Source of the DNA: Escherichia phage slur09
DNA: 64,000 nt
Sequence record: NC_028840.1
Strand: one strand, 5' to 3'
In this document: positions 49,384-60,229 of the stretch, in pieces
How the letters are laid out: each line of letters begins with the position of its first letter
Position numbering within the stretch: position 1 is the stretch's first letter
The notes under the pieces: model-generated
Seen by the model: only the letters and a program-made list of their open reading frames with translations
Database searches by the model: none
Told to the model about the DNA's origin: nothing
Translations under genes and position numbers: made by a program

Positions 49384-49392
49384 GGAGACTAT

Positions 49393-49578
49393 ATGTCTAA
49401 GTTTCAAGAACTCAAGCAAGAGCTAGAAGAGTGTGCCTGCCCTGAGTGTAGAGGAATTGGTGAAAGTTCTGATGCAGAAGCAGGAGATACTTTTTGCAAT
49501 ATCTGGGTTTGCCCAAATTGCAATGGTACAGGTATTAATCCTAACTGTGGTATTTCCCTAGATATTGAACGAGGATAA
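49393..49578 (+). CDS. hypothetical zinc-ribbon mini-protein
   Basis: 61 aa; CACPEC...CPNC. Confidence 0.45.
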   Translation: MSKFQELKQELEECACPECRGIGESSDAEAGDTFCNIWVCPNCNGTGINPNCGISLDIERG

Positions 49579-49679
49579 TACCTGTGAAACTAAAAGATTA
49601 TTATATTGGTTGGTTTGTGGGACTAGTAGTAGGATTTTCACTAGGCTATAATATGTATCAACTAATAAACTGATTACAT

Positions 49680-49756
49680 GGGGGTGTAATCGAATTGGCA
49701 TAGGTACTGGACTTAAAATTCAGGTTTTGTGGGTTCGAATCCCACCACCCCTACCA
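49680..49756 (+). tRNA. tRNA with Leu anticodon TAA on a short-variable-arm (type I) scaffold
   Basis: Acceptor GGGGGTG/CACCCCT, A73, D-loop AATTGGCAT, anticodon arm CTGGA-CTTAAAA-TTCAG, 5-nt variable loop, T-arm GTGGG-TTCGAAT-CCCAC. Confidence 0.6.
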
Positions 49757-49772
49757 AATTAAGGAAATAAGA

Positions 49773-49943
49773 TGTATAGACATCCACCTCCGCCAACACG
49801 TCGTTCTAGAGAAGTTATTCTCATGGAATTGACTAAAAACTTCAAGGCAACTCTTGAAGATAGAGATCTAGGCACGGATGAAGACATTGATTTTATTTGT
49901 AGACTATTAAAGATGAAACTGGAGAAACAACATGGCTAATCCT
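49773..49943 (+). CDS. hypothetical small protein (56 aa)
   Basis: ATG after AAGGAAATAAG; below ORF-track length cutoff; stop overlaps the next ORF start. Confidence 0.4.
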
Positions 49944-50138
49944 GAAATTACCGCACAACGTTTCATGCTTAAAGGCATGATTGCTGAGGCAGGTATAACT
50001 CAAGAGGTTGCAGATTTTCATAAGCAATTTCTTGACATTATAACTCTAGCTAAAGAGACTGGAGAAAAAGAACACGGAGCAGCAATTATGGCTATATCTC
50101 TTATTAGTCTAGACTTGGCTGAAGAGTCTGGAGTTTAG
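49932..50138 (+). CDS. hypothetical protein
   Basis: ORF track, 68 aa. Confidence 0.45.
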   Translation: MANPEITAQRFMLKGMIAEAGITQEVADFHKQFLDIITLAKETGEKEHGAAIMAISLISLDLAEESGV

Positions 50139-50168
50139 CTCCTCCAAACAGAATTTTTAAAAATGTAC

Positions 50169-50198
50169 TTGCCTTTTGCTTTAAATTTCTGGTATAAT
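50169..50198 (+). promoter_or_regulatory. T5-type promoter (TTGCCT -35)
   Basis: TTGCCT-N18-TATAAT. Confidence 0.5.
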
Positions 50199-50228
50199 AG
50201 TTATATAAATTGATGAAGGAGTTAACGA

Positions 50229-50504
50229 ATGCAAAATCGTGTTATAGCAACTGGTATTGAAAGTGCAATCTGTAAATCCTGGGAAGGCTGGGAAGGTGAG
50301 ATTGAATGGCTTTATTTCTACGATGTAGAACTTCTGCCGGAAGTTAAAACTAAATGTGTTGAAGCTGGCATGGCTCCAGATGCAAAAGCTGATATTGATA
50401 TTTCAATGTCTGAACTTAAAGGTCGTGTAATTACTGTTAGTGATGAGGGTGAAGAAGTTTTCGAACTTCCATTCTCCTTAACTGTCACTCCTAAGTTCGA
50501 CTAA
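50229..50504 (+). CDS. hypothetical protein
   Basis: ORF track, 91 aa. Confidence 0.5.
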   Translation: MQNRVIATGIESAICKSWEGWEGEIEWLYFYDVELLPEVKTKCVEAGMAPDAKADIDISMSELKGRVITVSDEGEEVFELPFSLTVTPKFD

Positions 50505-50527
50505 CTAATACAGCACTGAGCAAGTTC

Positions 50528-50567
50528 TTTAAAATTTGACTTGCTCAGTGCCATAAAACTTGATATA
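50528..50567 (+). terminator. long hairpin (13-bp stem GCACTGAGCAAGT/ACTTGCTCAGTGC) whose 3' arm overlaps the -35 of the next promoter
   Basis: Perfect 13-bp inverted repeat; TTGACT -35 lies inside the 3' arm; TATAAT follows 17-18 bp later. Confidence 0.55.
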
Positions 50568-50634
50568 ATATTTATCTAATTTGGAAACATATTTAAAAGT
50601 GTTTAAATGAGGCTTTTTGAATACTTCTAAATAT

Positions 50635-50722
50635 GGGCGTTTATTCCGTAAGTGGTAGCGGAGGGGATTGTAAATCCCTGGTCATTGCGACTCGAGTGGT
50701 TCGACTCCATTAACGCCCACCA
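50635..50722 (+). tRNA. tRNA-Tyr (anticodon GTA), long variable arm
   Basis: Acceptor GGGCGTT/AACGCCC, A73, anticodon arm GGGGA-TTGTAAA-TCCCT, long variable arm, encoded CCA. Confidence 0.75.
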
Positions 50723-50739
50723 AATTAAAGGTAAAGGAT

Positions 50740-51231
50740 ATGTATATTGATCGGATAATTCAAGAAGCTGCAAATAGGGGTATTATACAGTTGGGTTCAC
50801 CCGCTGATATAAACAAAGATCTAATATTAGAAAGCCTCACATTTGGTACAGCTAACTTTGGTCGCGATAGTAATCGTCGATATAGCTTGAAGTTATCTGC
50901 ACTATCTTTTATCAAGTATAACAAAAGTATTGGAGAAAAATCCAGCTGTGGTTTTATTTACGCAATAACTAACCCAGCTTGGGATAACTATGTAAAAATT
51001 GGTATGTCTTCTGATCCTAAAACAAGATTAGGAAATTACCAAACCTATTCTCCTTTACGTGATTATAAGTTAATACATTGGTCATTTTGGTTTAATGCTA
51101 GAGAAGCGGAGAAAATGCTTCATAATAGCTTTCCTGAACGGCTTAATGAATGGGTAGTGTTAGACAGAGGTGTAGACGAAATACTTTCCGAGTTTAACAA
51201 TCTATCCAATAAGCAATTTAAGTCCTGTTAG
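50740..51231 (+). CDS. T5orf172-domain protein (GIY-YIG-like, putative homing endonuclease family)
   Basis: 163 aa; GFIYAITNPAWDNYVKIGMS...RL.NYQTYSP motif shared with ORF 54257..54730. Confidence 0.6.
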   Translation: MYIDRIIQEAANRGIIQLGSPADINKDLILESLTFGTANFGRDSNRRYSLKLSALSFIKYNKSIGEKSSCGFIYAITNPAWDNYVKIGMSSDPKTRLGNYQTYSPLRDYKLIHWSFWFNAREAEKMLHNSFPERLNEWVVLDRGVDEILSEFNNLSNKQFKSC

Positions 51232-51298
51232 ACAAACTGGTAAAGTCACTACCCTTTCAAGGTAGGATTTGCGGGTTCGATCCCCGCACAGGACGCCA
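51222..51298 (+). tRNA. tRNA-Glu (anticodon TTC)
   Basis: Acceptor GTCCTGT/ACAGGAC, anticodon arm CTACC-CTTTCAA-GGTAG, T-arm GCGGG-TTCGATC-CCCGC; 5' end overlaps the last codons of ORF 50740..51231. Confidence 0.75.
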
Positions 51299-51306
51299 AT
51301 TTCTGC

Positions 51307-51383
51307 ATTCCTAGAGTGTTACTGGACAGCATGTCGGTCTCCAAAACCGTACGGTCTAGGTTCGAGTCCTAGTAGGTTTGCCA
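51307..51383 (+). tRNA. tRNA-Trp-like (anticodon CCA) with two U-U mismatches in the acceptor stem
   Basis: Anticodon arm CGGT-CTCCAAA-ACCG, T-arm CTAGG-TTCGAGT-CCTAG, acceptor ATTCCTA/TAGGTTT pairs 5 of 7. Confidence 0.45.
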
Positions 51384-51389
51384 AAATTT

Positions 51390-51464
51390 GCACCTTTAGC
51401 TGAGATGGATTAGCGCTTGCCTGAAGAGCTTGAGAGGTTCGTTCGATTCGAACAGGGTGCACCA
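51390..51464 (+). tRNA. tRNA-Phe (anticodon GAA)
   Basis: Acceptor GCACCTT/AGGGTGC, anticodon loop CTGAAGA, T-arm GTTCG-TTCGATT-CGAAC; anticodon stem has two U-U mismatches. Confidence 0.6.
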
Positions 51465-51481
51465 ATTTGAAGGAGCTGCTG

Positions 51482-51754
51482 ATGCATCCTGAAAACTTCT
51501 TTATTTACTGCGCTGATAAGTCGCTGAAACGTAGAATTAACAAAGTCTATCATTATCGTGCTAGTCAACAGCCTTATGTATATGCTTTTGACGGTGATCA
51601 CATTCCATTAGAACAATTATCCTGTGATTACATGATATTGAAGAACTTTGATGAGACAAAGATCTCAAGCGTTCATAATCGACAGAATCCATTAACGTGG
51701 AAATATAAGAAGAAAAAGAAAGGCATCAAATTCTTAAAAAATGTAGTTGCTTAG
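51482..51754 (+). CDS. hypothetical protein
   Basis: ATG after AAGGAG RBS (ORF track starts at 51467). Confidence 0.45.
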   Translation: MHPENFFIYCADKSLKRRINKVYHYRASQQPYVYAFDGDHIPLEQLSCDYMILKNFDETKISSVHNRQNPLTWKYKKKKKGIKFLKNVVA

Positions 51755-51775
51755 TTTCCAAAAGTTCTGTATAAT
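51747..51775 (+). promoter_or_regulatory. T5-type promoter
   Basis: TTGCTT-N17-TATAAT. Confidence 0.6.
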
Positions 51776-51804
51776 AATTACATAAATTGAACTGGAGAAG
51801 CAAC

Positions 51805-52029
51805 ATGACAGAACAAGAATTGAATGAACGTAAGCTGGTAATGCTTCGCTTACTAAATATTTTCTCTGGTATGGACGGTGGAATTGACTTTGTTCATCTA
51901 CGTTCTTTCGTAGAAGAAGCCGAAGGCGAATCTATCACTAAAATCCTTAAACACATGGGATTACTTTTAGATGCTGCTAATGTGGCTACTGAATATAAAC
52001 TAGAAGATCTACCGAAGCGTGTTAAATGA
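51805..52029 (+). CDS. hypothetical protein
   Basis: ATG after GGAGAAG (ORF track starts at 51787). Confidence 0.45.
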   Translation: MTEQELNERKLVMLRLLNIFSGMDGGIDFVHLRSFVEEAEGESITKILKHMGLLLDAANVATEYKLEDLPKRVK

Positions 52030-52217
52030 AACGATTAGTTAGATTTAAGTGTTGTGGTTCTGAACATATTTTCACATATCTTCGTGAATTTAAAATGTGT
52101 GATTGTGGTAAATCAGGCTATGACTCAGGAGACGGGTTCTACACCCGTACTCTAGGGAACTTCAATGATCTAGAATTTGAAGATCTCGAAAAACAAGATA
52201 AATCGACCGTTGGCTGA
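52026..52217 (+). CDS. hypothetical zinc-ribbon mini-protein
   Basis: 63 aa; CC...CDC pattern; 3' end overlaps the start of tRNA-Cys. Confidence 0.45.
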   Translation: MKRLVRFKCCGSEHIFTYLREFKMCDCGKSGYDSGDGFYTRTLGNFNDLEFEDLEKQDKSTVG

Positions 52218-52279
52218 ATGGCTTAGGCGAAGGATTGCAAATCCTTTTTATGTGAGTTCAAATCTCATGCGGTCGTCCA
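52204..52279 (+). tRNA. tRNA-Cys (anticodon GCA)
   Basis: Acceptor CGACCGT/GCGGTCG, anticodon arm AAGGA-TTGCAAA-TCCTT, T-arm GTGAG-TTCAAAT-CTCAT, encoded CCA. Confidence 0.75.
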
Positions 52280-52281
52280 AT

Positions 52282-52422
52282 TTGCTGAAAGAATTGTTAA
52301 ATCAATTCAGGCACGCGTAGGAACACTGTCTCCGTAATTGAAAGATGAGGCACGGTTTGGAGAGGTATGCTGCTACACGCTACGGTGCTAACTCCGTCTA
52401 GGTGAAAATCCTAGTCAGCAAT
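52282..52422 (+). ncRNA. tRNA-like RNA (about 141 nt) with 7-bp acceptor stem, D-like arm, T-arm and a roughly 59-nt insertion enclosed by an extended anticodon-type stem
   Basis: Perfect acceptor TTGCTGA/TCAGCAA; T-arm CTAGG-TGAAAAT-CCTAG; D-like hairpin GAATT...AATTC; 9-bp stem GCACGCGTAG/CTACGGTGC enclosing 52321-52379; no encoded CCA. Confidence 0.4.
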
Positions 52423-52431
52423 ATAAATTTA

Positions 52432-52514
52432 GGGTCGTTAGCCAAGCGGTTTGGCGGTGGACTGTTAATCCATGTCGAAAGACAACGTAGGTTCGAATCC
52501 TACACGGCCCGCCA
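52432..52514 (+). tRNA. tRNA with Asn anticodon GTT on a long-variable-arm (type II) scaffold
   Basis: Acceptor GGGTCGT/ACGGCCC, G73, D-arm GCCA/TGGC, anticodon arm GTGGA-CTGTTAA-TCCAT, 13-nt variable arm with GTC-GAAA-GAC hairpin, T-arm GTAGG-TTCGAAT-CCTAC. Confidence 0.6.
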
Positions 52515-52616
52515 AATTCTGTGTAGAGTTAAGTAAACCGGTAGCCAACCAGCTATCATTGCTGACATCGAATTCAGCCACAGATACCATTTTCATTAAT
52601 AACTGAGGAAACAAGC

Positions 52617-52802
52617 ATGTCCAAGAATGTAATTGCACAGTTAGAAGTTCATCGTGATAGCACTATCAACAATATTGAAGTTGAGAAGAAATACATCGAA
52701 GAACTTAAACATGATATACTAGTAAGTCTTAATCGTCTTAATGTACGAAAAGACTTTCTTAAAGAACTTAATGCAGCTATTGAAAAACTCAAAGCTGAGT
52801 AA
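52617..52802 (+). CDS. hypothetical protein
   Basis: ORF track, 61 aa. Confidence 0.45.
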   Translation: MSKNVIAQLEVHRDSTINNIEVEKKYIEELKHDILVSLNRLNVRKDFLKELNAAIEKLKAE

Positions 52803-52811
52803 ATGAATTAT

Positions 52812-52888
52812 GCGACCGGGGCTGGCTTGGTAATGGTACTCCCCTGTCACGGGAGAGAATGTGGGTTCGAATCCCATCGGTCGCGCCA
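52812..52888 (+). tRNA. tRNA-Asp (anticodon GTC)
   Basis: Acceptor GCGACCG/CGGTCGC, anticodon arm CTCCC-CTGTCAC-GGGAG, T-arm GTGGG-TTCGAAT-CCCAT, encoded CCA. Confidence 0.75.
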
Positions 52889-52914
52889 AACTAAACTAGC
52901 ACGAGAAATATGCT

Positions 52915-53262
52915 ATGATTAATGCTAAAGAAGAATTGTTACTTGCCCTAAAGAATACTAATTCTGAAGTTAAGTGTATTAAGATAGAATTCGGTTATTA
53001 TGGGGACAAAGAAGTTTGGGTATTACCCGTAGGTTATACAGAAAAAGATATTGAAGATTTTCTAAATAATCTAGACTTTAAATATGATTCTGGTTTCGGT
53101 GGACAATTGCTTTATGGTAACGTATGGTTTACTGATGGAACTTGGTTAGAACGTGGTGAATATGATGGTTCTGAATGGTGGGAATATAAGACTACACCAG
53201 CAATTCCAGAGGAATGTCGAACAATTAATGGTGAAGTAGATCATACATTACTATTAAATTAA
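52915..53262 (+). CDS. hypothetical protein
   Basis: ORF track, 115 aa. Confidence 0.5.
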   Translation: MINAKEELLLALKNTNSEVKCIKIEFGYYGDKEVWVLPVGYTEKDIEDFLNNLDFKYDSGFGGQLLYGNVWFTDGTWLERGEYDGSEWWEYKTTPAIPEECRTINGEVDHTLLLN

Positions 53263-53384
53263 CAAAATTTCAGTGCAGAACACGGAGCTAGCAATTCGGA
53301 AGTGCCGACTCATGATAGGCTGCCTATGTACTTGCGAAGCGGTCGTGTCCAAGACTCGGACTCTTGCACTGAAAACAATCAAAC

Positions 53385-53505
53385 ATTCTAGCGTGGTTGA
53401 TGGGGAAACCAGCTTGGCTAGGGCAGAAGCTCGTTCGATTCGAGTGAAAGAATGGTTCTCGTAAGTCCGCACAAGTGATAACAGGTTCGAGTCCTGTCTA
53501 GAATG
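53385..53505 (+). ncRNA. tRNA-like RNA (about 121 nt) with a roughly 53-nt insertion in the anticodon arm
   Basis: Perfect 7-bp acceptor ATTCTAG/CTAGAAT; D-arm TGGT/ACCA with GG-containing loop; anticodon-type stem CTTG/CAAG enclosing 53418-53470; T-arm ACAGG-TTCGAGT-CCTGT. Confidence 0.4.
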
Positions 53506-53514
53506 ACACTATAA

Positions 53515-53637
53515 AGTTTACTTATTATGTAGGTTCCGATAGATCGGCGGGTCTATTCTGGCATTTAAGAGAGGTCTCGCAAACTTCTTTGTCAGCCGTG
53601 GGGTTGATAGCCTCCAGGTGGCCTACACAATAAGTAA
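53515..53637 (+). repeat. 17-bp inverted repeat (TTTACTTATTATGTAGG / CCTACACAATAAGTAAA, one mismatch) flanking an 89-bp core
   Basis: Arms at 53515-53531 and 53621-53637 are reverse complements with a single mismatch; no ORF inside. Confidence 0.6.
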
Positions 53638-53654
53638 ATTTATTAAAAATTCAT

Positions 53655-53683
53655 TTGCTATTCTGCTTAATTATCTGTATAAT
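53655..53683 (+). promoter_or_regulatory. T5-type promoter
   Basis: TTGCTA-N17-TATAAT. Confidence 0.6.
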
Positions 53684-53715
53684 ATATTTTATAAAGTGAA
53701 GAGAAGGAAAGCAAA

Positions 53716-53913
53716 ATGAAAAAAGTTTTACTGCTGTCTGTATTCCTACTCACTGGTTGTTTTAAACTTGACTCAACCATTAATAAAGAGTATGAATTTG
53801 CTAAAAATTTCTGTGGCGGAGAGAGTAATATAAAGAATTTCTACATATATAGTACAATTCCTAGTACCGTTTATTGTGTAGACGGACGAATTATTAATAT
53901 TCCTCCACAATAA
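53716..53913 (+). CDS. small lipoprotein (lipobox LLTGC)
   Basis: 65 aa; MKKVLLLSVFLLTGC signal peptide with lipobox Cys. Confidence 0.55.
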   Translation: MKKVLLLSVFLLTGCFKLDSTINKEYEFAKNFCGGESNIKNFYIYSTIPSTVYCVDGRIINIPPQ

Positions 53914-53922
53914 AAGAATTAA

Positions 53923-53998
53923 CAGTGCGTAGCGCAGTTGGTAGCGTGGGAGCCTTGGATGCTTCGGGTCGCAGGTTCGAGTCCTGCCGCACTGACCA
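53923..53998 (+). tRNA. tRNA-Pro (anticodon TGG)
   Basis: Acceptor CAGTGCG/CGCACTG, D-arm GCGC/GCGT, anticodon arm GGAGC-CTTGGAT-GCTTC, T-arm GCAGG-TTCGAGT-CCTGC, encoded CCA. Confidence 0.8.
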
Positions 53999-54004
53999 AA
54001 CAAT

Positions 54005-54082
54005 TGCGGGTTAGATCTCTGGTAGAGATCGCTAGTCTCATAAGCTAGAAAGAGGTAGGTTCGATTCCTGCACCCGCTTCCA
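54005..54082 (+). tRNA. tRNA with CAT anticodon (Met/Ile2/initiator candidate), U1-U72 mismatch
   Basis: Acceptor TGCGGGT/ACCCGCT (first pair U-U), D-arm GATC/GATC, anticodon arm CTAGT-CTCATAA-GCTAG, T-arm GTAGG-TTCGATT-CCTGC. Confidence 0.6.
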
Positions 54083-54102
54083 TTTTAATAGAGGATTTCG
54101 AA

Positions 54103-54267
54103 ATGAAAGTATTTCGATTAGTAGTAAGTGACAAACGTTTAGGTAAGAATACCTCAAAATCCTTACTTGCTCATTATGGAAAAGACGAGAAAGAAGTAAT
54201 GGCGGAGTTTGGGATTAATCACCCTTACTTGAAAGTTCACTCTATTAAGGAAGTTTATGCTTATTAA
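54103..54267 (+). CDS. hypothetical small protein (54 aa)
   Basis: ATG shortly after the tRNA; below ORF-track cutoff; stop overlaps the start of ORF 54257. Confidence 0.35.
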   Translation: MKVFRLVVSDKRLGKNTSKSLLAHYGKDEKEVMAEFGINHPYLKVHSIKEVYAY

Positions 54268-54730
54268 CAAGGTGCTTCAAGCTCTAGATCTTCCAGAGCT
54301 CTTTACTATTACCGACTCCTTAATACATCGGTATATGGAAAAGTATAATGAAATCTCTGGTAAAAAAGGGAAACTAAAATCCTCAGAATTTAAGTTCTGT
54401 TATAGAATGGCAGCATTAAACCTCTTAAAGTATAAGAGGGAGCATAAAATTCCTATAACAGAAGGATTTGTCTATGTAATAGGTAATCCAGCATGGCCTG
54501 GACTATATAAGATAGGCATGACAGTAGATGTGAACGAAAGACTGTCTAGTTATCAAACATATTCGCCTTATCGTGATTACAAGTTATACCATTTCAGATT
54601 CTCCTCAGACAAGAGAAGAACTGAAAAAGCATTACATAACCTTCTGAAAGACTACAAAATATCAGGAGAATGGTTTGAAGTACCTCTGTTAGACGCCTTC
54701 AAACTATTAGTAGAAAATTTGGATTGCTAA
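54257..54730 (+). CDS. T5orf172-domain protein (GIY-YIG-like, putative homing endonuclease family)
   Basis: 157 aa; GFVYVIGNPAWPGLYKIGMT...RLSSYQTYSP motif, paralog of 50740..51231. Confidence 0.6.
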   Translation: MLINKVLQALDLPELFTITDSLIHRYMEKYNEISGKKGKLKSSEFKFCYRMAALNLLKYKREHKIPITEGFVYVIGNPAWPGLYKIGMTVDVNERLSSYQTYSPYRDYKLYHFRFSSDKRRTEKALHNLLKDYKISGEWFEVPLLDAFKLLVENLDC

Positions 54731-54798
54731 CTCAACTGGATAAGAGTACCGGACCTTTAATCCGTCAGTTCTGGGTTCGAATCCCAGGCAATCCACCA
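54721..54798 (+). tRNA. tRNA-Lys (anticodon TTT)
   Basis: Acceptor GGATTGC/GCAATCC, D-arm ACTC/GAGT, anticodon loop CCTTTAA, T-arm CTGGG-TTCGAAT-CCCAG, encoded CCA. Confidence 0.8.
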
Positions 54799-54816
54799 AT
54801 TTCAAGAAAAACTCAG

Positions 54817-54845
54817 TTGCTTGATGCTTAATTTCTTGTTATAAT
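54817..54845 (+). promoter_or_regulatory. T5-type promoter driving a 1.2-kb ORF-free tRNA/ncRNA transcript
   Basis: TTGCTT-N17-TATAAT; no ORF of 60 aa or more until 56023. Confidence 0.6.
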
Positions 54846-55083
54846 ATTTATATAAATTGATGAGGAGAAATCCTCATCATAGTTCACTAAGGTATTAGCT
54901 CGACCTAGGACTGGCTGCCAAAAAGCACGATCCCTTCTACTTGGGAGGAGTTCTAGATTAGTCCACTAGATTCAGTGGCAACTGAGTAGTGTATCGGGTT
55001 TGCGAGATGACGTAGTTCCTTCCGCTCGAAGCGAAGGTGCTGTAGTTACGCCGAGCTAATAGCCTTAGTAAACTAAAGAATTT

Positions 55084-55162
55084 GGGGAATGGGTCTGCAT
55101 GGAGTGGACACCTCGCTTGCACCGAGGACATCAGGACGGTTCGATTCCGTTATTCTCCACCA
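55084..55162 (+). tRNA. tRNA-Ala (anticodon TGC)
   Basis: Acceptor GGGGAAT/ATTCTCC (G3-U70 wobble), anticodon arm CCTCG-CTTGCAC-CGAGG, T-arm GACGG-TTCGATT-CCGTT, encoded CCA. Confidence 0.65.
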
Positions 55163-55167
55163 AATAC

Positions 55168-55244
55168 GCGTGATTGATGGAATTGGCATACATACCGTCC
55201 TTAGAAGTCGGGTTTTGAGGGTTCGAATCCCTTGTCACGCACCA
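55168..55244 (+). tRNA. tRNA with Leu anticodon TAG on a short-variable-arm (type I) scaffold
   Basis: Acceptor GCGTGAT/GTCACGC, A73, D-loop AATTGGCAT, anticodon arm CCGTC-CTTAGAA-GTCGG (one U-U), T-arm GAGGG-TTCGAAT-CCCTT; paralogous to the tRNA at 49680. Confidence 0.6.
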
Positions 55245-55356
55245 AATTTGATGGTCAGAGTAAATTAAACCTACTATCTCGGTTGAGCTGTTTTAATGGG
55301 TTCGAATCCCAGCGAGGCGTAACTGCCTGGTGTGATAGAGGCATCATCTTATTATT

Positions 55357-55447
55357 GGAAGAGCAAATCGAATTGGCGACGAAAACCGCTTGGAAAGTGG
55401 CTGACTGGTAAAACGGCTTGAGAGTTCAAATCTCTCCTCTTCCGCCA
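55357..55447 (+). tRNA. tRNA-Ser (anticodon GGA), long variable arm
   Basis: Acceptor GGAAGAG/CTCTTCC, G73, anticodon arm CCGC-TTGGAAA-GTGG, long variable arm, T-arm GAGAG-TTCAAAT-CTCTC, encoded CCA. Confidence 0.65.
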
Positions 55448-55459
55448 AACAATTTATAT

Positions 55460-55554
55460 GGTAGGTCAATCCAATGGCTGGCGCTGGACTCCGACTTGAA
55501 ATCGGTTGATCGTAGTGATACGGTGTAAGGGTTCGATCCCCTTACCTACCTCCA
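55460..55554 (+). tRNA. tRNA-Ser (anticodon TGA), long variable arm
   Basis: Acceptor GGTAGGT/ACCTACC, anticodon arm CCGA-CTTGAAA-TCGG, long variable arm, T-arm AAGGG-TTCGATC-CCCTT, encoded CCA. Confidence 0.65.
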
Positions 55555-55559
55555 AGTCT

Positions 55560-55691
55560 TGAAGTATGCCGGAATCGGTAGACGGGGCTGCCTAAAAGGT
55601 TTACAGGGAACATCCACTCCTTGCAACATACCTCATAAAGCGGCTGAGATAAATGGTCTATCTCGTGAAGGTTCAAGTCCTTCTGCTTCTT
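55560..55691 (+). ncRNA. tRNA-like RNA (about 132 nt): type II-like scaffold with a roughly 48-nt insertion in the anticodon arm
   Basis: Acceptor TGAAGTA/TGCTTCT (6 of 7 pairs, U1-U72), D-arm CCG-GAATCGGTAGA-CGG, anticodon-type stem GCTGC/GCGGC enclosing 55592-55639, variable hairpin GAGATA/TATCTC, T-arm GAAGG-TTCAAGT-CCTTC; no CCA. Confidence 0.35.
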
Positions 55692-55802
55692 GATACATCT
55701 ATGGCTCAAAGTGTAACGGTGCTATTTGATGCTCTTAGTAAGACTTTCCCGACATGCGTTCGGGAGTAAGCTGCTAAGGCTAGAGTAGAAGAGTTTCTGA
55801 GA

Positions 55803-55925
55803 GCCGCCACAATTGAAAATTCGTACTCGTCTTGAGCTGCGTGCAATAGGAGATAACTTGATTAGTATTCTAGAACATGCTAATTGAGGATGGTTTCGCT
55901 AACCCTGCGAGTTTTCAATTGTGGC
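55803..55925 (+). repeat. 14-bp perfect inverted repeat (GCCACAATTGAAAA / TTTTCAATTGTGGC, extendable to about 18 bp with one mismatch) flanking a 95-bp core; 3' arm overlaps the 5' end of tRNA-His
   Basis: Arms at 55803-55816 and 55912-55925 are exact reverse complements. Confidence 0.55.
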
Positions 55926-55997
55926 TATATCATAATTGGTTAATGATCCTGATTGTGAATCAGGCCTATGTGGATTCGAATTCCACTAGCCACCCCA
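55921..55997 (+). tRNA. tRNA-His (anticodon GTG)
   Basis: Acceptor GTGGCTA/TAGCCAC, anticodon arm CCTGA-TTGTGAA-TCAGG, T-arm GTGGA-TTCGAAT-TCCAC, encoded CCA. Confidence 0.8.
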
Positions 55998-56022
55998 AAT
56001 TAACTTAAATAGGAAATAAAAT

Positions 56023-56220
56023 ATGGCTGATTTCTGCAAACAATGCTCCATTGATATGTGGGGCAGAGATACTGGTGATCTTTCTGGTTTGATTACAGAA
56101 GCTGAGGTCAAAGAAGGTTATGGTGCAGTTGTGATTTGCGAAGGGTGCGGAGTTATTCGAGTAGATCATGAAGGCAAACGTTTAGAAGAACCGGAAAACT
56201 TAGGAGAAACAAATGAGTAA
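56023..56220 (+). CDS. hypothetical zinc-ribbon mini-protein
   Basis: 65 aa; CKQCS...CEGCG. Confidence 0.45.
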   Translation: MADFCKQCSIDMWGRDTGDLSGLITEAEVKEGYGAVVICEGCGVIRVDHEGKRLEEPENLGETNE

Positions 56221-56449
56221 TGCTTTAATTAGTGAAATTATGTTAACACGTCTTGCAGAACTGCAAACTCTTCGAGATGAATCTCAGAATAACTTATCCT
56301 ACCATAAACAAATGGTAGATACTCTTACTACTCGTATTGATACTTACGAGCGTGATATTGCAGCATTACAAGCTCTCTTCTCTGTATCAGCACCAGATAC
56401 GTTAGAACAGCCTGCTGTATCCCAGCCAGTAGAAACAGCGTCTAGTTAA
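56213..56449 (+). CDS. hypothetical protein
   Basis: ORF track, 78 aa. Confidence 0.45.
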   Translation: MSNALISEIMLTRLAELQTLRDESQNNLSYHKQMVDTLTTRIDTYERDIAALQALFSVSAPDTLEQPAVSQPVETASS

Positions 56450-56458
56450 TAGCATTCT

Positions 56459-56534
56459 TGGGATGTAGATCAATTGGCAGATCGTCGGCCCCTGACTCCG
56501 AAGGTTCCTGGTTCGATCCCAGGCACTCCAGCCA
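56459..56534 (+). tRNA. tRNA-Gln (anticodon CTG), non-canonical anticodon arm
   Basis: Acceptor TGGGATG/CACTCCA (one A-C mismatch), D-arm GATC/GATC, anticodon region TCGGC-CCCTGAC-TCCGA (C at position 33), T-arm CCTGG-TTCGATC-CCAGG, encoded CCA. Confidence 0.5.
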
Positions 56535-56540
56535 AATAAT

Positions 56541-56616
56541 TGGAGAGTAGTGTAACGGTTAGCACAACGGCCTTTGACTCCGTTAATGGTAGGTTCGATT
56601 CCTCCTTCTCCAGCCA
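56541..56616 (+). tRNA. tRNA-Gln (anticodon TTG)
   Basis: Acceptor TGGAGAG/TTCTCCA, anticodon arm ACGGC-CTTTGAC-TCCGT, T-loop TTCGATT, encoded CCA. Confidence 0.65.
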
Positions 56617-56624
56617 AATAATAA

Positions 56625-56700
56625 GCGGTTAAGCACACGGGTTGTGTCGCAGGCCTTCCAAGCCTCGCTGAGTAGGGTTCGATTCCCTCTAGCCGCTCCA
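56625..56700 (+). tRNA. tRNA-Gly (anticodon TCC)
   Basis: Acceptor GCGGTTA/TAGCCGC, D-arm CACA/TGTG, anticodon arm AGGC-CTTCCAA-GCCT, T-loop TTCGATT, encoded CCA. Confidence 0.7.
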
Positions 56701-56716
56701 ACTTTAAGGAAACATT

Positions 56717-56968
56717 ATGCACGTTTTTGAGTTTCGTAATAAAAGTACCGATAAACGGGTTATTGTTATTGGAGAAACATACCGAGCATACGAACAAACT
56801 GACGGCTCTGTTATCCTGAATGATGAGAAAGGAGGTTTTAGCTTTTATCCAGAAGAACCTTATGAAGAGTTTCGAAAACAATTTAACCTAGACTGGAGAA
56901 AGCATTTAAACACTGTTGCTTCATCTGTAGTATTGCCAACTACCAGTACTGTACTCTCTAATGGCTGA
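56717..56968 (+). CDS. hypothetical protein
   Basis: ORF track, 83 aa. Confidence 0.45.
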   Translation: MHVFEFRNKSTDKRVIVIGETYRAYEQTDGSVILNDEKGGFSFYPEEPYEEFRKQFNLDWRKHLNTVASSVVLPTTSTVLSNG

Positions 56969-57125
56969 TAACCTAAAAGTCAAGATCGATAAACAAAAGA
57001 AACGTGTAGAAGTAGAGATTGGTGAAGAACGTGTAGCCTTCACCTTTGAATTTCTACAACAAATGGCAATGACAGTTATGACTGATAAGTCCCCTGTTAT
57101 TGAAAAAGAAATCCCGTTGAAATAA
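56961..57125 (+). CDS. hypothetical small protein (54 aa)
   Basis: ATG overlapping the previous stop region; below ORF-track cutoff. Confidence 0.35.
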   Translation: MADNLKVKIDKQKKRVEVEIGEERVAFTFEFLQQMAMTVMTDKSPVIEKEIPLK

Positions 57126-57133
57126 CGGGTTCT

Positions 57134-57220
57134 GCTGGGTTGGCAGAATGGTTGAATGCACCTGATTTGTAATCAGGAGGAGTAATCCCGTTGCAGGTTC
57201 GAATCCTGTGCCCAGCACCA
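57134..57220 (+). tRNA. tRNA with Thr anticodon TGT on a long-variable-arm (type II, Leu-like) scaffold
   Basis: Acceptor GCTGGGT/GCCCAGC (G1-C72, C2-G71), A73, D-arm GCA-GAATGGTTGAA-TGC, anticodon arm CCTGA-TTTGTAA-TCAGG, 15-nt variable arm, T-arm GCAGG-TTCGAAT-CCTGT, encoded CCA. Confidence 0.6.
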
Positions 57221-57234
57221 ATTTAAGGACTATT

Positions 57235-57402
57235 ATGTTTAAATTATTAGTAGTTATCTGGTATAGTCAATCAAATAGAGCGAATACCTCCCACGTTATA
57301 GACTTTAATACTAAAAATGAAGCTGAAAAAGCATATGCTAATTTAATAGAACGTAATAAAGAATCTCGTAGTATAGTTTATGAAGTGACTAAACTTTATT
57401 AA
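57235..57402 (+). CDS. hypothetical small membrane-like protein
   Basis: ATG after AAGGA RBS; ORF-track version 57208..57402 overlaps the preceding tRNA. Confidence 0.45.
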   Translation: MFKLLVVIWYSQSNRANTSHVIDFNTKNEAEKAYANLIERNKESRSIVYEVTKLY

Positions 57403-57410
57403 AAATTCAT

Positions 57411-57439
57411 TTGCTTTCTCTCTTATTTATTGTTATAAT
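57411..57439 (+). promoter_or_regulatory. T5-type promoter
   Basis: TTGCTT-N17-TATAAT. Confidence 0.6.
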
Positions 57440-57469
57440 ATTTATATAAATTAATGAGAGGGAAGCCAA

Positions 57470-57763
57470 ATGAAACGTTATCTTTCTGTTGTGTTCCAAA
57501 CTGGTGGTCAACACTATACCTATGAATTTCCTGGCTCTTGGAAGATCAAAGAAGGTGATCAAGTAGTAGTGTTAACACCGCGTGAGGGTTTCAAGGTAGT
57601 AACGGTTAAGCAAGTATTTCCAAAAGATCATGAACCAGCTAAAGGCATTCGCTATAAGATGATTCATGGTGTAGTTCGTCAAGTACCACGAGCGGAAGTC
57701 GAAATCAAAGTAGATAAAGATGGTAAACTTAAATATACCTCTTGCTTAGACGAGTTGCTATAA
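57470..57763 (+). CDS. hypothetical protein
   Basis: ORF track, 97 aa. Confidence 0.5.
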   Translation: MKRYLSVVFQTGGQHYTYEFPGSWKIKEGDQVVVLTPREGFKVVTVKQVFPKDHEPAKGIRYKMIHGVVRQVPRAEVEIKVDKDGKLKYTSCLDELL

Positions 57764-57969
57764 TGAGGATTACTTTCACAGAAAAGATCATGAGTAATGG
57801 TGTTATGATCATTACCGCATGGGATGGTAATCAGTGGTGTAGTGTTTCAGGTATTAAGCCTGAAGAACAAACACTAGAAAATATCTCAAAGATTAAGCGA
57901 AGAATGGCAGAACGTGCACGACTTCCAGGTGCACCTAGAAATGGCAAACGTTCTGCTGTAAAATGTTAA
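57763..57969 (+). CDS. hypothetical protein
   Basis: ATG overlapping the upstream stop (TAATG); ORF track starts at 57742. Confidence 0.45.
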   Translation: MRITFTEKIMSNGVMIITAWDGNQWCSVSGIKPEEQTLENISKIKRRMAERARLPGAPRNGKRSAVKC

Positions 57970-57970
57970 T

Positions 57971-58047
57971 GCTTCGGTAGCTTAGCGATCTAAAGCACTC
58001 GGCCGATAACCGAGAGATCGGGGGTTTAAATCCCTCCCGGAGTACCA
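57971..58047 (+). tRNA. tRNA-Ile (anticodon GAT)
   Basis: Acceptor GCTTCGG/CCGGAGT (two G-U), D-arm GCTT/AAGC, anticodon arm CTCGG-CCGATAA-CCGAG (C at position 33), T-arm GGGGG-TTTAAAT-CCCTC, encoded CCA. Confidence 0.65.
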
Positions 58048-58143
58048 AATTTAGGAACTAAGACTATGCGTCCAGGAAAGTTTAAAAAAGCTAATTGGTC
58101 TAAAGAGTATAAAGAATACTTACTTAGTCTAGTAAAACATAAT

Positions 58144-58219
58144 AGTTAGTTGGCAGAGTGGTTATGCACCTCCTTCATACGGAGCGACTACAGTGGTTCA
58201 AATCCACTACTAACTACCA
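58144..58219 (+). tRNA. tRNA with CAT anticodon (Met/initiator/Ile2 candidate)
   Basis: Acceptor AGTTAGT/ACTAACT, anticodon arm CTCC-TTCATAC-GGAG, T-arm AGTGG-TTCAAAT-CCACT, encoded CCA. Confidence 0.65.
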
Positions 58220-58256
58220 TTAAAAGAGCTAGAGATAGCCAAATTTAGGAGCAGCT

Positions 58257-58451
58257 ATGTTAACAATTAAAATAATGTCAGCCAAGAATGGGGAGCAGAT
58301 TCATACAGGCAAAAGTGTAAGCTTTAATCCTAGAAATAAAAGATTGGCTATAGTTGGAGTAGACCAAGCCATCTTTTTAAAAGAAGATGAAGTAGCATAT
58401 GTCATGAACCAAACTGGTAAGACAGTTTCCGTATACTATGGAAAAGTATAA
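58257..58451 (+). CDS. hypothetical protein
   Basis: ORF track, 64 aa. Confidence 0.45.
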   Translation: MLTIKIMSAKNGEQIHTGKSVSFNPRNKRLAIVGVDQAIFLKEDEVAYVMNQTGKTVSVYYGKV

Positions 58452-58637
58452 AGAATAAAAAGATCAGGCCTTTGTGCCAGATCTCTATGTTTATTAAGCT
58501 GAATGGGACTATCAATCCACGAGCCGGACTACGAGCGATTATCGGGTATTCACTTAATAAATAGCCTGCCTCCCAGTTTTTATCTTGCTTCTGGGTTAAC
58601 AAAAAGCTGAGCCAAATTCTAACATCGGGGAGATCTA

Positions 58638-59006
58638 ATGAAAGCGTATCAAAATATTAAATCTGGCGTAATTAACCTTGTTCATGAAAATCAGATTATT
58701 CAGCTATACTCCGACAACGGTGAACTTAAACAGAAAGTTCTAGTTGAAGATCTAGAAGGTATCACACCACAATTCGATCCCGAAGCCTTCCGTGAAGTCA
58801 AAGTGGAAGTCGCCCCTCAAATTGAAGGTGGTCAACACCTAAATGTCAATGTGTTAAGTCGTGATCAGCTTTTGGATGCACAGAAACATCCTGAAAAATA
58901 CCCTCAATTAACTATCCGTGTTTCAGGATACGCTGTACGTTTTAATGCACTGACGCGTGAACAACAGAACGACGTTATTAGTCGTACATTTACTCAGGCG
59001 ATGTAA
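58638..59006 (+). CDS. hypothetical protein
   Basis: ORF track, 122 aa. Confidence 0.5.
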
Positions 59007-59087
59007 TGGGGTTTGGGTACGATTTCTCCGAACTACGTGAGGTAGTCGAGCAAACTCCATTTATCTCCCAAGTTTTAGGAGAAATGT

Positions 59088-59402
59088 GTGGATCGAGCAT
59101 TAAGACGCCATCACCGGCAACGTGTGAAGAACAACCGCAGGAAGTATTGGACAGTCTTCCCACATGAAGAAAGCCCTAAGCGGTTAGGTATTATCACTAC
59201 TACTCCTTGCATCTGTTCTTGTTGGATGTGTGGGAACCCTCGCAAGTACTATAAGAATAGTAAAGCAGGCATGAAAATTTCGGAGATTAGAAAAATGGAA
59301 GCAATGATTATGGGCATCTCAAATGATGAATTTGATGGCTTTGTAGGATTCGGAGAAGGAATCAGTTCAGGCTGTTTCGAAGATGAACGCCCCGATCTGT
59401 GA
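59088..59402 (+). CDS. hypothetical Cys-rich basic protein
   Basis: 104 aa; basic N-terminus and CICSCWMCGNP cluster. Confidence 0.45.
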   Translation: MDRALRRHHRQRVKNNRRKYWTVFPHEESPKRLGIITTTPCICSCWMCGNPRKYYKNSKAGMKISEIRKMEAMIMGISNDEFDGFVGFGEGISSGCFEDERPDL

Positions 59403-59411
59403 TTAATAACA

Positions 59412-59447
59412 AACCCCAGCTATTGAATAAGTAGTCTGGGGTTTTTC
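59412..59447 (+). terminator. Rho-independent terminator (ACCCCAG ... CTGGGGT plus T-run)
   Basis: GC stem followed by TTTTTCT. Confidence 0.65.
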
Positions 59448-59523
59448 TGTATATAGGTAAATAGTTTATGTATAATAAAATTCATCCACATTAGGTTAAT
59501 TTAAAAGACTTAATGGAGGTAAT

Positions 59524-59871
59524 ATGAGCCGTACTTATCGTAAACAATCTGGTGATCAGTGGTGGAAGTCTAAAGAACAATTCTCTCAAGAATATTCTTT
59601 CCTTAAAGAAAATGGCTACTGGATTCGTGTTATTTATGCTAAATCCTGGGATGATGTAGAACAGGAAATGAAGGAAGCAACCATTCGTAATGAGAAAAAG
59701 GATGGTTATAACTGGAATTCTATTAGTAAGAATGTTAAGTGGCATTCTAATAAAATGGTTCGTCAAGGGAATCGTCAAGAACTCCACCGCGTGATGAAAG
59801 ATCCAGAAAATTACGACTATAATCGCGATCATGACATGCGTAAGCGTGGATTATGGTGGTGCTATGACTAA
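59524..59871 (+). CDS. hypothetical protein
   Basis: ORF track, 115 aa. Confidence 0.5.
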   Translation: MSRTYRKQSGDQWWKSKEQFSQEYSFLKENGYWIRVIYAKSWDDVEQEMKEATIRNEKKDGYNWNSISKNVKWHSNKMVRQGNRQELHRVMKDPENYDYNRDHDMRKRGLWWCYD

Positions 59872-59888
59872 ATTCTGAAATAATTCAT

Positions 59889-59917
59889 TTGCTAAACCTC
59901 TCTTTTCTTGATATAAT
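59889..59917 (+). promoter_or_regulatory. T5-type promoter
   Basis: TTGCTA-N17-TATAAT. Confidence 0.6.
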
Positions 59918-59947
59918 ATATTTATAAATTGATGAGAGAGGTTTGAA

Positions 59948-60229
59948 ATGAAAAATCGCCTAGACTGTGCTGTTCATGTTCTTGAACATGATGTTGCGGG
60001 AACCTGTATGTCTTACCACGAAGCAGGTCGTTTAATTAAAGAACGTGTGGCAGATGTGTGCGGATTGAAGATTACTGCTGAGGAAGCTGATGATCTTTTA
60101 GGTCAAGCACTGGAGAAAACCGAAATGTTCCTCTGCGATTCTTGTTCTTGGTGGTGTGAAGCTCACGAACGTTCTTTCAACGATTATGATGTATGTCGTG
60201 ATTGTAGTGGGGAGGATGAAGATGAATAA
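59948..60229 (+). CDS. hypothetical Cys-rich acidic protein
   Basis: 93 aa; CDSCSWWC...CRDCSG. Confidence 0.45.
   Translation: MKNRLDCAVHVLEHDVAGTCMSYHEAGRLIKERVADVCGLKITAEEADDLLGQALEKTEMFLCDSCSWWCEAHERSFNDYDVCRDCSGEDEDE

What the first reader, a model, noticed from the sequence alone, without database searches (positions are those of the whole stretch)
49393..60229. Several zinc-ribbon or Cys-rich mini-proteins interspersed with tRNAs
ORFs 49393..49578, 52026..52217, 56023..56220, 59088..59402 and 59948..60229 are 60-105 aa and carry paired CxxC-like motifs. Small zinc-binding early proteins of phages often inhibit host enzymes such as RNA polymerase, nucleases or defence proteins.
Basis: inference. 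Interest (0 to 1): 0.35.

Follow-up and report, generated by a model that had tools for sequence, protein, structure and literature searches.

The report
Five unrelated small cysteine-cluster phage proteins
The five short reading frames are real, conserved genes of a T5-like phage that each carry a conserved cysteine cluster (probably a zinc site), but they are five unrelated accessory proteins of unknown function already catalogued as "hypothetical", not a tRNA-linked system.

Summary
The window is the tRNA-rich early region of a T5-like phage (Tequintavirus). All five ORFs exist and are real genes: pN/pS is 0.11-0.31, each has a plausible start signal, and each matches a PHROG family at E below 1e-30.

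They hold 7.3% Cys against 1.15% in 27 neighbouring ORFs, and the clustered cysteines are the most conserved columns. They share no similarity with each other.

- **ORF1:** a DnaJ/anti-TRAP-type 2x CxxCxGxG finger. Its "antitermination protein Q" label rests only on lambda Q's zinc finger.
- **ORF2:** borderline Pfam DUF7695 (CC...CxC).
- **ORF3 (T5.062):** a C4 protein family found in 834 phage records. The AF2 model has pLDDT 88.5, with no PDB or Pfam match.
- **ORF4 (T5.055):** an Arg-rich helix plus an invariant CSCWMCGN motif. The family is also in at least 244 bacterial species genomes.
- **ORF5 (T5.053):** a C-terminal CxxC...CxxC, found only in T5-like phages.

Only ORF1-3 lie among tRNAs, and ORF3 relatives elsewhere are mostly tRNA-free.

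- **Published data:** ORF1/2 positions fall in the deletable T5 st0 segment. Knock-down of T5.053 and T5.055 has no effect, while T5.062 is "Semi-Fit".
- **Not shown:** zinc binding and any inhibitor role.

The parts
49393..49578 (+). ORF1, 61 aa, acidic (pI 4.1). It has two CxxCxGxG knuckles (C16/C19 and C40/C43) plus a conserved C35. Family phrog_6060, mislabelled 'anti-termination protein Q-like'. GGAG at 49384-49387.
   Evidence: Sub-threshold DnaJ_CXXCXGXG and Anti-TRAP Pfam hits. Only lambda Q residues 118-151 align. Found in 293 phage records, essentially all T5-like by name and genome size. Absent from T5 and SP15.
52026..52217 (+). ORF2, 63 aa. C9-C10...C25-x-C27. Family phrog_7042, borderline Pfam DUF7695. 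The start overlaps the upstream stop (ATGA). The last 14 nt, including the stop codon, lie inside tRNA-Cys (52204-52279).
56023..56220 (+). ORF3, 65 aa, acidic (pI 4.3), orthologue of T5.062. C4 site (C5, C8, C39, C42). Family phrog_2210 with consensus MADFCKQCS...CEGCG. Starts 25 nt after tRNA-His. AGGA at 56011-56014. Overlaps the next ORF (56213-56449) by 8 nt.
   Evidence: CRISPRi-ART 'Semi-Fit'.
59088..59402 (+). ORF4, 104 aa, orthologue of T5.055, with a GTG start and AGGAG at 59077-59081. The N-terminal helix is Arg-rich (RALRRHHRQRVKNNRRK; residues 1-60 have pI 10.5). It is followed by the invariant CSCWMCGNPRK motif and an acidic tail (pI 4.1). Family phrog_4499.
   Evidence: AF2 model poor, pLDDT 55.
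59948..60229 (+). ORF5, 93 aa, acidic (pI 4.4), orthologue of T5.053. C63-x2-C66-x3-C70...C83-x2-C86 plus C20, all conserved. Family phrog_2855.
59889..59917 (+). Sigma-70-type promoter-like site, TTGCTA-17-TATAAT with TG, upstream of ORF5. It matches the position of the promoter annotated upstream of T5.053.

Best explanation
These are five independent, genuinely coding accessory genes of a T5-like phage. They are transcribed with the tRNA genes from early promoters. Each encodes a protein too small to have a large hydrophobic core, and each is most likely held together by a metal (zinc) site made from its conserved Cys/His cluster.

None carries a match to an enzyme family, so they most likely work as small binding modules.
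- ORF1, ORF3 and ORF5 are strongly acidic. They are more likely to bind proteins (host or phage) than nucleic acid.
- ORF4 has an arginine-rich N-terminal helix and most likely binds RNA or DNA.
- ORF2 is undetermined.

They do not form a system with each other or with the tRNAs. The tRNA neighbourhood is just the variable accessory region of T5-like genomes, where small genes, tRNAs and homing-endonuclease genes come and go.

**Shown:** coding status, conservation of the Cys clusters, family spread, lack of linkage, dispensability or weak fitness effect.
**Inferred:** zinc binding, binder role, targets.
For: Source: T5-like, 96-97% identity to Tequintavirus genomes.

Coding: purifying selection, PHROG membership, start signals. 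Substitutions in the ORF4 N-terminus fall on its third codon positions.

Cys clusters: enriched and invariant.

Independence: no similarity among the five. Their spreads differ:
- ORF1: 293 phage records.
- ORF2: 295.
- ORF5: 517.
- ORF3: 834, including Felixounavirus, 135-140-kb coliphages and Pseudomonas phage Lana; also 566 clusters at 50% identity.
- ORF4 motif: 143 IMG/VR loci and 244 bacterial species genomes.

No tRNA link: 24 of 35 non-T5 ORF3 loci have no tRNA within 10 kb, and there is no conserved neighbour.

Charge.

Accessory status:
- T5 and SP15 lack ORF1 and ORF2.
- The T5 st0 8.5-kb deletion spans their positions.
- T5.053 and T5.055 are 'Not Fit' and T5.062 is 'Semi-Fit' on knock-down.

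The ORF3 fold is confidently predicted as a compact helix plus beta-hairpin domain.
Against: - Zinc binding is not demonstrated for any of the five.
- ORF4 has only three invariant Cys, and the HH pair is present in only 18 of 30 family members. A canonical four-ligand site is therefore unproven. Its AF2 model is poor.
- No structure was obtained for ORF1, ORF2 or ORF5.
- Acidic or basic charge is weak evidence for the binding partner.
- The 'Semi-Fit' call for T5.062 (p 0.055) comes from a data set whose authors warn of low precision. It could reflect effects on the polycistronic tRNA transcript.
Confidence: 0.65

Rival explanations
1. At least one of the five is a dedicated inhibitor of a host defence system or host enzyme. 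A small zinc-stabilised protein would bind and block its target, as anti-TRAP does for TRAP or the 52-aa zinc-ribbon protein Enki does for AbiH and a retron.
For: - The surrounding region is an experimentally supported counter-defence island. Deleting about 8 kb lowers plating on retrons Eco2/Eco7 and AVAST 2.
- Rad (ORF75) is the 189-aa Toprim protein at window 48411-48980, directly upstream.
- ORF1 and ORF2 are patchy among relatives and sit in the T5 st0 deletable segment. This is typical of counter-defence genes.
- There is a precedent for a small zinc-ribbon anti-defence protein.
- ORF1 homologues score sub-threshold against Anti-TRAP.
Against: - The mapped determinants are other genes (ORF71-73, ORF75, tRNA-Tyr).
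- Only SP15 fragments F6 and F8 rescued phage from Eco2/Eco7. SP15 lacks ORF1 and ORF2 altogether.
- No hit to any characterised inhibitor.
- ORF3 and ORF4 families are too broadly spread, across many phyla for ORF4, to target one narrow defence system.
Confidence: 0.3
2. ORF4 (and possibly ORF1) is a nucleic-acid-binding regulator. An arginine-rich helix plus a Cys knuckle would bind RNA or DNA to control transcription, antitermination or RNA processing.
For: - The ORF4 N-terminal 22 residues carry 9 K/R (pI 12), with R3, A4, R7 and R12 nearly invariant.
- In some prophages the family sits between a Q-like gene (phrog_79) and the holin/endolysin/spanin cassette.
- In some Betaproteobacteria it lies near RtcB and an ORF that reads like an HD-domain protein; neither ORF was profile-scanned.
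- ORF1's finger aligns with lambda Q's zinc finger.
Against: - No match to any DNA- or RNA-binding family.
- No conserved neighbour across 80 bacterial loci.
- ORF1 is 61 aa against 207 aa for Q. It lacks everything but the finger, has no Pfam Q hit, and is acidic.
- T5.055 knock-down has no effect.
Confidence: 0.25
3. The Cys clusters are not zinc sites. They bind another cofactor (Fe-S, Fe) or act as redox-active thiols.
For: - ORF4's conserved CxCxxC has only three invariant Cys.
- ORF5 has six conserved Cys and ORF1 five, more than one C4 site needs.
Against: - Spacings in ORF1 (2x CxxCxGxG), ORF3 (CxxC...CxxC) and ORF5 (CxxC-x16-CxxC) are classic structural-zinc patterns.
- No radical-SAM or ferredoxin-type motif or family hit.
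Confidence: 0.1
4. Some or all of the ORFs are chance reading frames, and the Cys motifs are coincidence.
For: - The ORFs are very short.
- Residue shuffles with the same Cys count often give as many C-x(1-4)-C pairs. P is about 0.55-0.59 for four of the five.
- Some annotators truncate ORF4 to 58 aa.
Against: - pN/pS is 0.11-0.31.
- Orthologues occur in hundreds of genomes.
- Cys columns are invariant at 32-50% identity.
- Start signals are conserved.
Confidence: 0.02

Closest known systems
DnaJ-type CxxCxGxG zinc finger as a stand-alone mini-protein (anti-TRAP / RtpA, Pfam PF15777; DnaJ central domain PF00684); also the zinc finger inside lambda Q
   Same: ORF1 has two CxxCxGxG repeats at the spacing of one DnaJ-type zinc centre and is about the size of anti-TRAP (53 aa). 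ORF1 and its homologues hit PF00684 and PF15777 at E 1.7e-4 to 2e-2. The repeats align with lambda Q C118/C121/C144/C147.
   Different: All scores are below the curated cut-offs (16-22 bits against 32-33). There is no homology outside the knuckles. ORF1 lacks about 150 residues of Q. Apart from one weak partial hit it is found only in T5-like phages.
Pfam DUF7695
   Same: ORF2 and three divergent homologues match positions 7-52 of the 58-position model at E 1.9e-5 to 5.7e-4.
   Different: Scores are 20-24.7 bits against a cut-off of 25. The family has no known function, so membership explains nothing.
T5 hypothetical proteins T5.062, T5.055, T5.053 and PHROGs 2210, 4499, 2855, 7042, 6060
   Same: Direct orthologues and family members.
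   Different: None. These are uncharacterised database families. T5 itself lacks ORF1 and ORF2.
Small zinc-ribbon phage anti-defence proteins (e.g. Enki, 52 aa, inhibits AbiH and a retron; bioRxiv 10.1101/2024.06.14.598830)
   Same: Similar size, a predicted zinc ribbon, and a phage accessory-gene location.
   Different: No sequence comparison with Enki was possible, and no activity is known for any of the five. This is a resemblance of kind only.
Arginine-rich-motif RNA binders (lambda/P22 N) and zinc-knuckle nucleic-acid binders
   Same: ORF4 starts with an Arg-rich helix (RALRRHHRQRVKNNRRK) followed by a Cys knuckle.
   Different: No homology and no nut/boxB context. This resemblance comes from my own knowledge and was not tested.

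Membership tests
Lambda-type antitermination protein Q (label carried by ORF1 / phrog_6060) | Match to a Q family profile (Pfam Phage_antitermQ / Antiterm) | tested here: not met
   No Q family among the Pfam hits at E up to 1, nor in NCBIfam.
Lambda-type antitermination protein Q (label carried by ORF1 / phrog_6060) | Full-length Q architecture (about 150-210 aa: the zinc finger plus the remaining ~170 residues of Q) | tested here: not met
   ORF1 is 61 aa. Only lambda Q residues 118-151 align, at 26% identity and pairwise E 0.006.
Lambda-type antitermination protein Q (label carried by ORF1 / phrog_6060) | Position directly upstream of a late operon with a qut site | tested here: not met
   ORF1 lies between a 62-aa ORF and tRNA-Leu inside the early tRNA cluster.
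DnaJ-type CxxCxGxG zinc finger / anti-TRAP | Two CxxCxGxG repeats | tested here: met
   CPECRGIG and CPNCNGTG. C16, C19, C40 and C43 are invariant in 13 distinct orthologues.
DnaJ-type CxxCxGxG zinc finger / anti-TRAP | Score above the Pfam gathering threshold (PF00684 32.7 bits; PF15777 32 bits) | tested here: not met
   16.4 and 15.2 bits for ORF1. The best homologues reach 22.2 and 20.0 bits.
DnaJ-type CxxCxGxG zinc finger / anti-TRAP | Binds zinc; binds TRAP or an unfolded client protein | not testable with these tools
   Needs metal analysis and binding assays.
Pfam DUF7695 (ORF2) | Score at or above the gathering threshold (25 bits) | tested here: inconclusive
   21.5 bits for ORF2. Homologues score 20.0, 20.9 and 24.7 bits, all over the same profile region.
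C4 zinc ribbon (ORF3) | Two CxxC pairs, conserved | tested here: met
   C5, C8, C39 and C42 are invariant in 83 sequences, making up 4 of the 7 invariant columns.
C4 zinc ribbon (ORF3) | Classical ribbon fold (two beta-hairpin knuckles) with a structural match to known ribbons | tested here: not met
   In the AF2 model (pLDDT 88.5), C5/C8 sit at the start of a helix and C39/C42 in a hairpin. There is no PDB match better than E 3. BFVD matches only uncharacterised homologues.
C4 zinc ribbon (ORF3) | Zinc bound | not testable with these tools
   Needs metal analysis.
TraR/DksA-type C4 zinc finger (considered for ORF5) | Match to Pfam zf-dskA_traR | tested here: not met
   There are no zinc-finger family hits for ORF5 at E up to 1, nor for a divergent homologue.
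Published counter-defence determinants of the T5/SP15 tRNA-rich region (Rad/ORF75, ORF71-73, tRNA-Tyr) | Identity with one of the mapped genes | tested here: not met
   By CDS order in NC_048627, ORF75 is the 189-aa 'DNA primase' (window 48411-48980). ORF71-73 correspond to window 50229-50504, 49932-50138 and 49772-49939. None is one of the five.
PHROG families 6060, 7042, 2210, 4499, 2855 | Significant full-length profile match | tested here: met
   E values are 1.1e-33, 3.5e-36, 2.5e-37, 1.3e-40 and 2.9e-31.

The most novel reading that the evidence does not exclude
ORF3 (T5.062 family, MADFCKQCS...CEGCG) could be a broadly conserved host-takeover or counter-defence factor shared by unrelated virulent phages. 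These include T5-like phages, Felix O1-like phages, 135-140-kb coliphages, Pseudomonas phage Lana and Burkholderia phage BcepSauron. Its compact zinc fold has no solved relative, and it is one of only three hypothetical T5 genes with a knock-down fitness effect. ORF4 (the CSCWMCGN family, found in phages and in at least 244 bacterial species across many phyla) could separately be an undescribed class of small Arg-rich RNA- or DNA-binding metalloprotein.
Probability: 0.2. Interest if true: 0.55.

Novelty: new member of a known kind. Interest (0 to 1): 0.27.

Why it matters
Taken together, the five ORFs are ordinary: small Cys-cluster accessory proteins are common in large virulent phages, and these are already catalogued as hypothetical.

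Three modest points of value remain:
1. The widely propagated name "antitermination protein Q" for ORF1's family is unsupported and should be dropped.
2. ORF3 and ORF4 belong to large families with sharply defined motifs, no Pfam model, and (for ORF3) no structural relative and a hint of a fitness effect in T5. They are reasonable targets for functional work.
3. The genes sit beside proven counter-defence genes (Rad, tRNA-Tyr), so deletion mutants tested on defence panels could be informative.

Tried and rejected
- **Sequence and profile searches of all five:** Pfam, NCBIfam and PDB sequences gave nothing above threshold.
- **ORF3 fold search:** no PDB match. BFVD gave only uncharacterised homologues.
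- **ORF4 structure:** AF2 was too poor to use, pLDDT 55.
- **Fused domains:** longer ORF3-family members (144-244 aa) carried no informative domain.
- **Functional link between ORF3 and tRNAs:** rejected.
- **Conserved neighbours:** none found for ORF3 or for ORF4 in bacteria. Only lineage-specific contexts appeared.
- **Paralogy among the five:** rejected.
- **Shuffle test of C-x(1-4)-C counts:** uninformative given the high Cys content.
- **ORF1 as Q:** rejected.
- **ORF2 as T5.070:** my first guess was wrong. T5 has no ORF2 homologue, and T5.070 is phrog_34563.
- **Identity with published anti-retron ORFs:** rejected.
- **Literature:** a search for the T5 locus tags found no papers. Two transposon-mutagenesis preprints do not cover T5-like phages.


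Full report
**Source and setting.** The window matches Tequintavirus (T5-like, Demerecviridae) genomes at about 96-97% identity over 82-91% of the queried stretches. It runs in reverse orientation relative to T5 NC_005859. The finding lies in the tRNA-rich early region: ARAGORN finds 21 tRNAs, 20 of them between 49002 and 58219, and Rfam agrees. Annotated relatives list the same small ORFs as 'hypothetical protein'.

**Observation.** All five ORFs exist as described. They are real genes on three counts.
- Pooled pN/pS against orthologues in 12-66 related loci is 0.19 (ORF1), 0.31 (ORF2), 0.25 (ORF3), 0.11 (ORF4) and 0.15 (ORF5).
- Each matches one PHROG family end to end at E 1e-31 to 1e-41.
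- Each has a credible start. ORF5 also has a TTGCTA-17-TGaTATAAT promoter-like site where T5 has an annotated promoter.

For ORF4, some pipelines call only the last 58 aa. However, among 29 loci the substitutions in the first 80 nt fall on ORF4's third codon positions, and the AGGAG-6-GTG start is conserved. The long form is therefore the gene, as in T5.055.

**More than chance?** The five hold 7.3% Cys against 1.15% in 27 neighbouring + strand ORFs (the selection was post hoc). More telling, the clustered Cys are the most conserved columns.
- Only ORF1, ORF3 and ORF5 have paired CxxC. ORF2 is CC...CxC. ORF4 has one cluster, of which CxCxxC is invariant.
- Only ORF1-3 lie among tRNAs.
- The five share no similarity with each other.

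**ORF1 (49393-49578).** It has two CxxCxGxG knuckles, the DnaJ / anti-TRAP type of zinc centre. Pfam hits are sub-threshold but consistent across homologues. It occurs in 293 phage records, essentially all T5-like by name and genome size; one weak partial hit lies in an 89,965-bp Salmonella phage record. It is absent from T5, where the HNH gene hegA occupies the site, and from SP15. Its common name, 'antitermination protein Q', rests only on lambda Q's zinc finger: 34 residues align at 26% identity. There is no Q profile hit, and ORF1 has less than a third of Q's length. I reject membership in Q.

**ORF2 (52026-52217).** It is a borderline DUF7695 match, at 21.5-24.7 bits against a cut-off of 25. 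It occurs in 295 phage records, mostly Demerecviridae. T5 has no homologue. Its stop codon (52215-52217) lies inside tRNA-Cys, which starts at 52204. By inference from the known action of RNase P, 5' maturation of the tRNA would cut off the stop codon of that mRNA copy.

**ORF3 (56023-56220) = T5.062.** This is the most widespread of the five.
- It is in 834 phage records, including Felixounavirus, 135-140-kb coliphages and Pseudomonas phage Lana.
- It is in 63 IMG/VR loci.
- It matches 566 clusters at 50% identity in 1.84 billion representatives.

C5, C8, C39 and C42 are invariant. Most non-T5 members carry an extra C-terminal G-x-C-x-S-x-D-C...H motif that T5-like members lack.

AF2 gives a confident compact model with pLDDT 88.5. 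It has no PDB relative, and its only BFVD matches are uncharacterised homologues in Felix O1, Providencia phage PSTCR5, Pseudomonas phage Lana and Burkholderia phage BcepSauron. No Pfam family fits, longer members carry no informative fusion, there is no conserved neighbour, and there is no tRNA association outside T5-like phages.

**ORF4 (59088-59402) = T5.055.** It has a basic Arg-rich N-terminal helix, an invariant CSCWMCGN-x-R motif and an acidic tail. The N-terminal 55-70 residues define a large family:
- 143 IMG/VR loci.
- At least 244 GTDB species genomes from Proteobacteria, Acidobacteriota, Bacteroidota, Desulfobacterota, Nitrospirota, Planctomycetota and others.

Only three Cys are invariant, and the HH pair is present in 18 of 30 members, so the metal site is uncertain. 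Genomic contexts are lineage-specific. In some prophages the gene sits between a Q-like gene and the lysis cassette. In some Betaproteobacteria it lies next to a 105-aa basic protein and near ORFs that by eye look like an HD-domain protein and RtcB; those two were not profile-scanned. The AF2 model was poor.

**ORF5 (59948-60229) = T5.053.** It is in 517 phage records: Tequintavirus and Epseptimavirus plus about 110-kb Klebsiella phages. C20, C63, C66, C70, C83 and C86 are invariant down to 32% identity. No family or structure match was found.

**Experimental literature.**
- Azam et al. (bioRxiv 10.1101/2023.03.15.532788; Nat Commun 2024, PMC11555353) showed that an ~8-kb tRNA-rich region of T5 and SP15 is spontaneously deletable.
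- They also showed that it carries counter-defence determinants: ORF75/Rad, tRNA-Tyr and ORF71-73.
- Mapping by gene order in SP15 places all of these on other ORFs. Rad is the Toprim protein at window 48411-48980.
- The T5 st0 record shows an 8.5-kb deletion joining T5.068 to T5.081. This corresponds to roughly window 44.5-52.7 kb. It covers the ORF1 and ORF2 positions but not ORF3-5.
- In the CRISPRi-ART T5 screen (PMC11879866 supplements), T5.053 and T5.055 are 'Not Fit'.
- T5.062 is 'Semi-Fit' in the same screen, at -1.42 with p 0.055. The authors caution about precision for this class in T5.

**Mechanism.** The best-supported reading is five independent accessory mini-proteins, each stabilised by a Cys (or Cys/His) metal site and acting as a binding module. 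Charge suggests protein partners for ORF1, ORF3 and ORF5 and nucleic acid for ORF4. The steps from 'conserved Cys cluster' to 'zinc', and from 'small acidic protein' to 'inhibitor', are inferences. An anti-defence role for one or more is plausible from the neighbourhood and from precedents such as Enki, but it is unsupported by any direct result.

**Verdict.** This is an ordinary feature of a large virulent phage. Its useful by-products are a mis-annotation to correct (ORF1 is not Q) and two large uncharacterised families (ORF3, ORF4) worth experimental follow-up.

Noticed in passing
window 48411-48980 (+): A 189-aa Toprim-domain protein (Pfam Toprim_2), annotated 'DNA primase' in relatives. 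By gene order it corresponds to SP15 ORF75, 'Rad', the published anti-retron protein (T5.076). It lies directly upstream of the finding.
   Followed up: partly
window 52204-52217: ORF2's last 14 nt, including its stop codon, lie inside the 5' end of tRNA-Cys, and the same overlap is annotated in relatives. RNase P maturation of the tRNA should leave that mRNA copy without a stop codon, so translating ORF2 and maturing tRNA-Cys from one transcript may be mutually exclusive.
   Followed up: no
window 50740-51231 and 54257-54730 (+): Two paralogous T5orf172/MUG113 (GIY-YIG-like) ORFs, 44% identical over 88 aa, sit inside the tRNA cluster. Each overlaps the downstream tRNA (Glu, Lys) by 10 nt. Both are absent at these sites in T5_ev212, so they look like mobile insertions.
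   Followed up: partly
window 59006-59167 (+), overlapping ORF4 59088-59167: A 53-aa ORF annotated in relatives (phrog_31464) overlaps the ORF4 start in the -1 frame. In Yersinia phage phiR2-01 and Salmonella phage UTK0009, its N-terminal part is fused in frame to the ORF4 homologue as one 121-aa protein. Substitution patterns favour ORF4's frame in the overlap.
   Followed up: partly
window 49097-49171 (+): Rfam finds a tRNA here (40.3 bits) that ARAGORN missed. Relatives annotate it as tRNA-Met / Ile2 (CAU).
   Followed up: no
alignment A2 (ORF3 family); window 56170-56220: Most non-T5 members of the ORF3 family carry an additional C-terminal G-x-C-x-S-x-D-C...H motif, possibly a second metal site. 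T5-like members, including this window, have lost it.
   Followed up: partly
L167, L169, L173, L176, L181, L185 (Betaproteobacteria), around position 4000: ORF4-family genes sit directly after a conserved 105-aa Arg-rich protein (MARTFRRKRERHEYYW...). In several loci they also lie within 1-3 kb of ORFs that by eye look like an HD-domain protein and RtcB RNA ligase (neither was profile-scanned). In L167 a 1007-aa ORF lies upstream. This may be a lineage-specific RNA-repair or defence island.
   Followed up: partly
window 58638-59006 (+): A 122-aa glycyl-radical domain protein (GrcA-like 'autonomous glycyl radical cofactor', T5.056) lies immediately upstream of the ORF4 locus.
   Followed up: no
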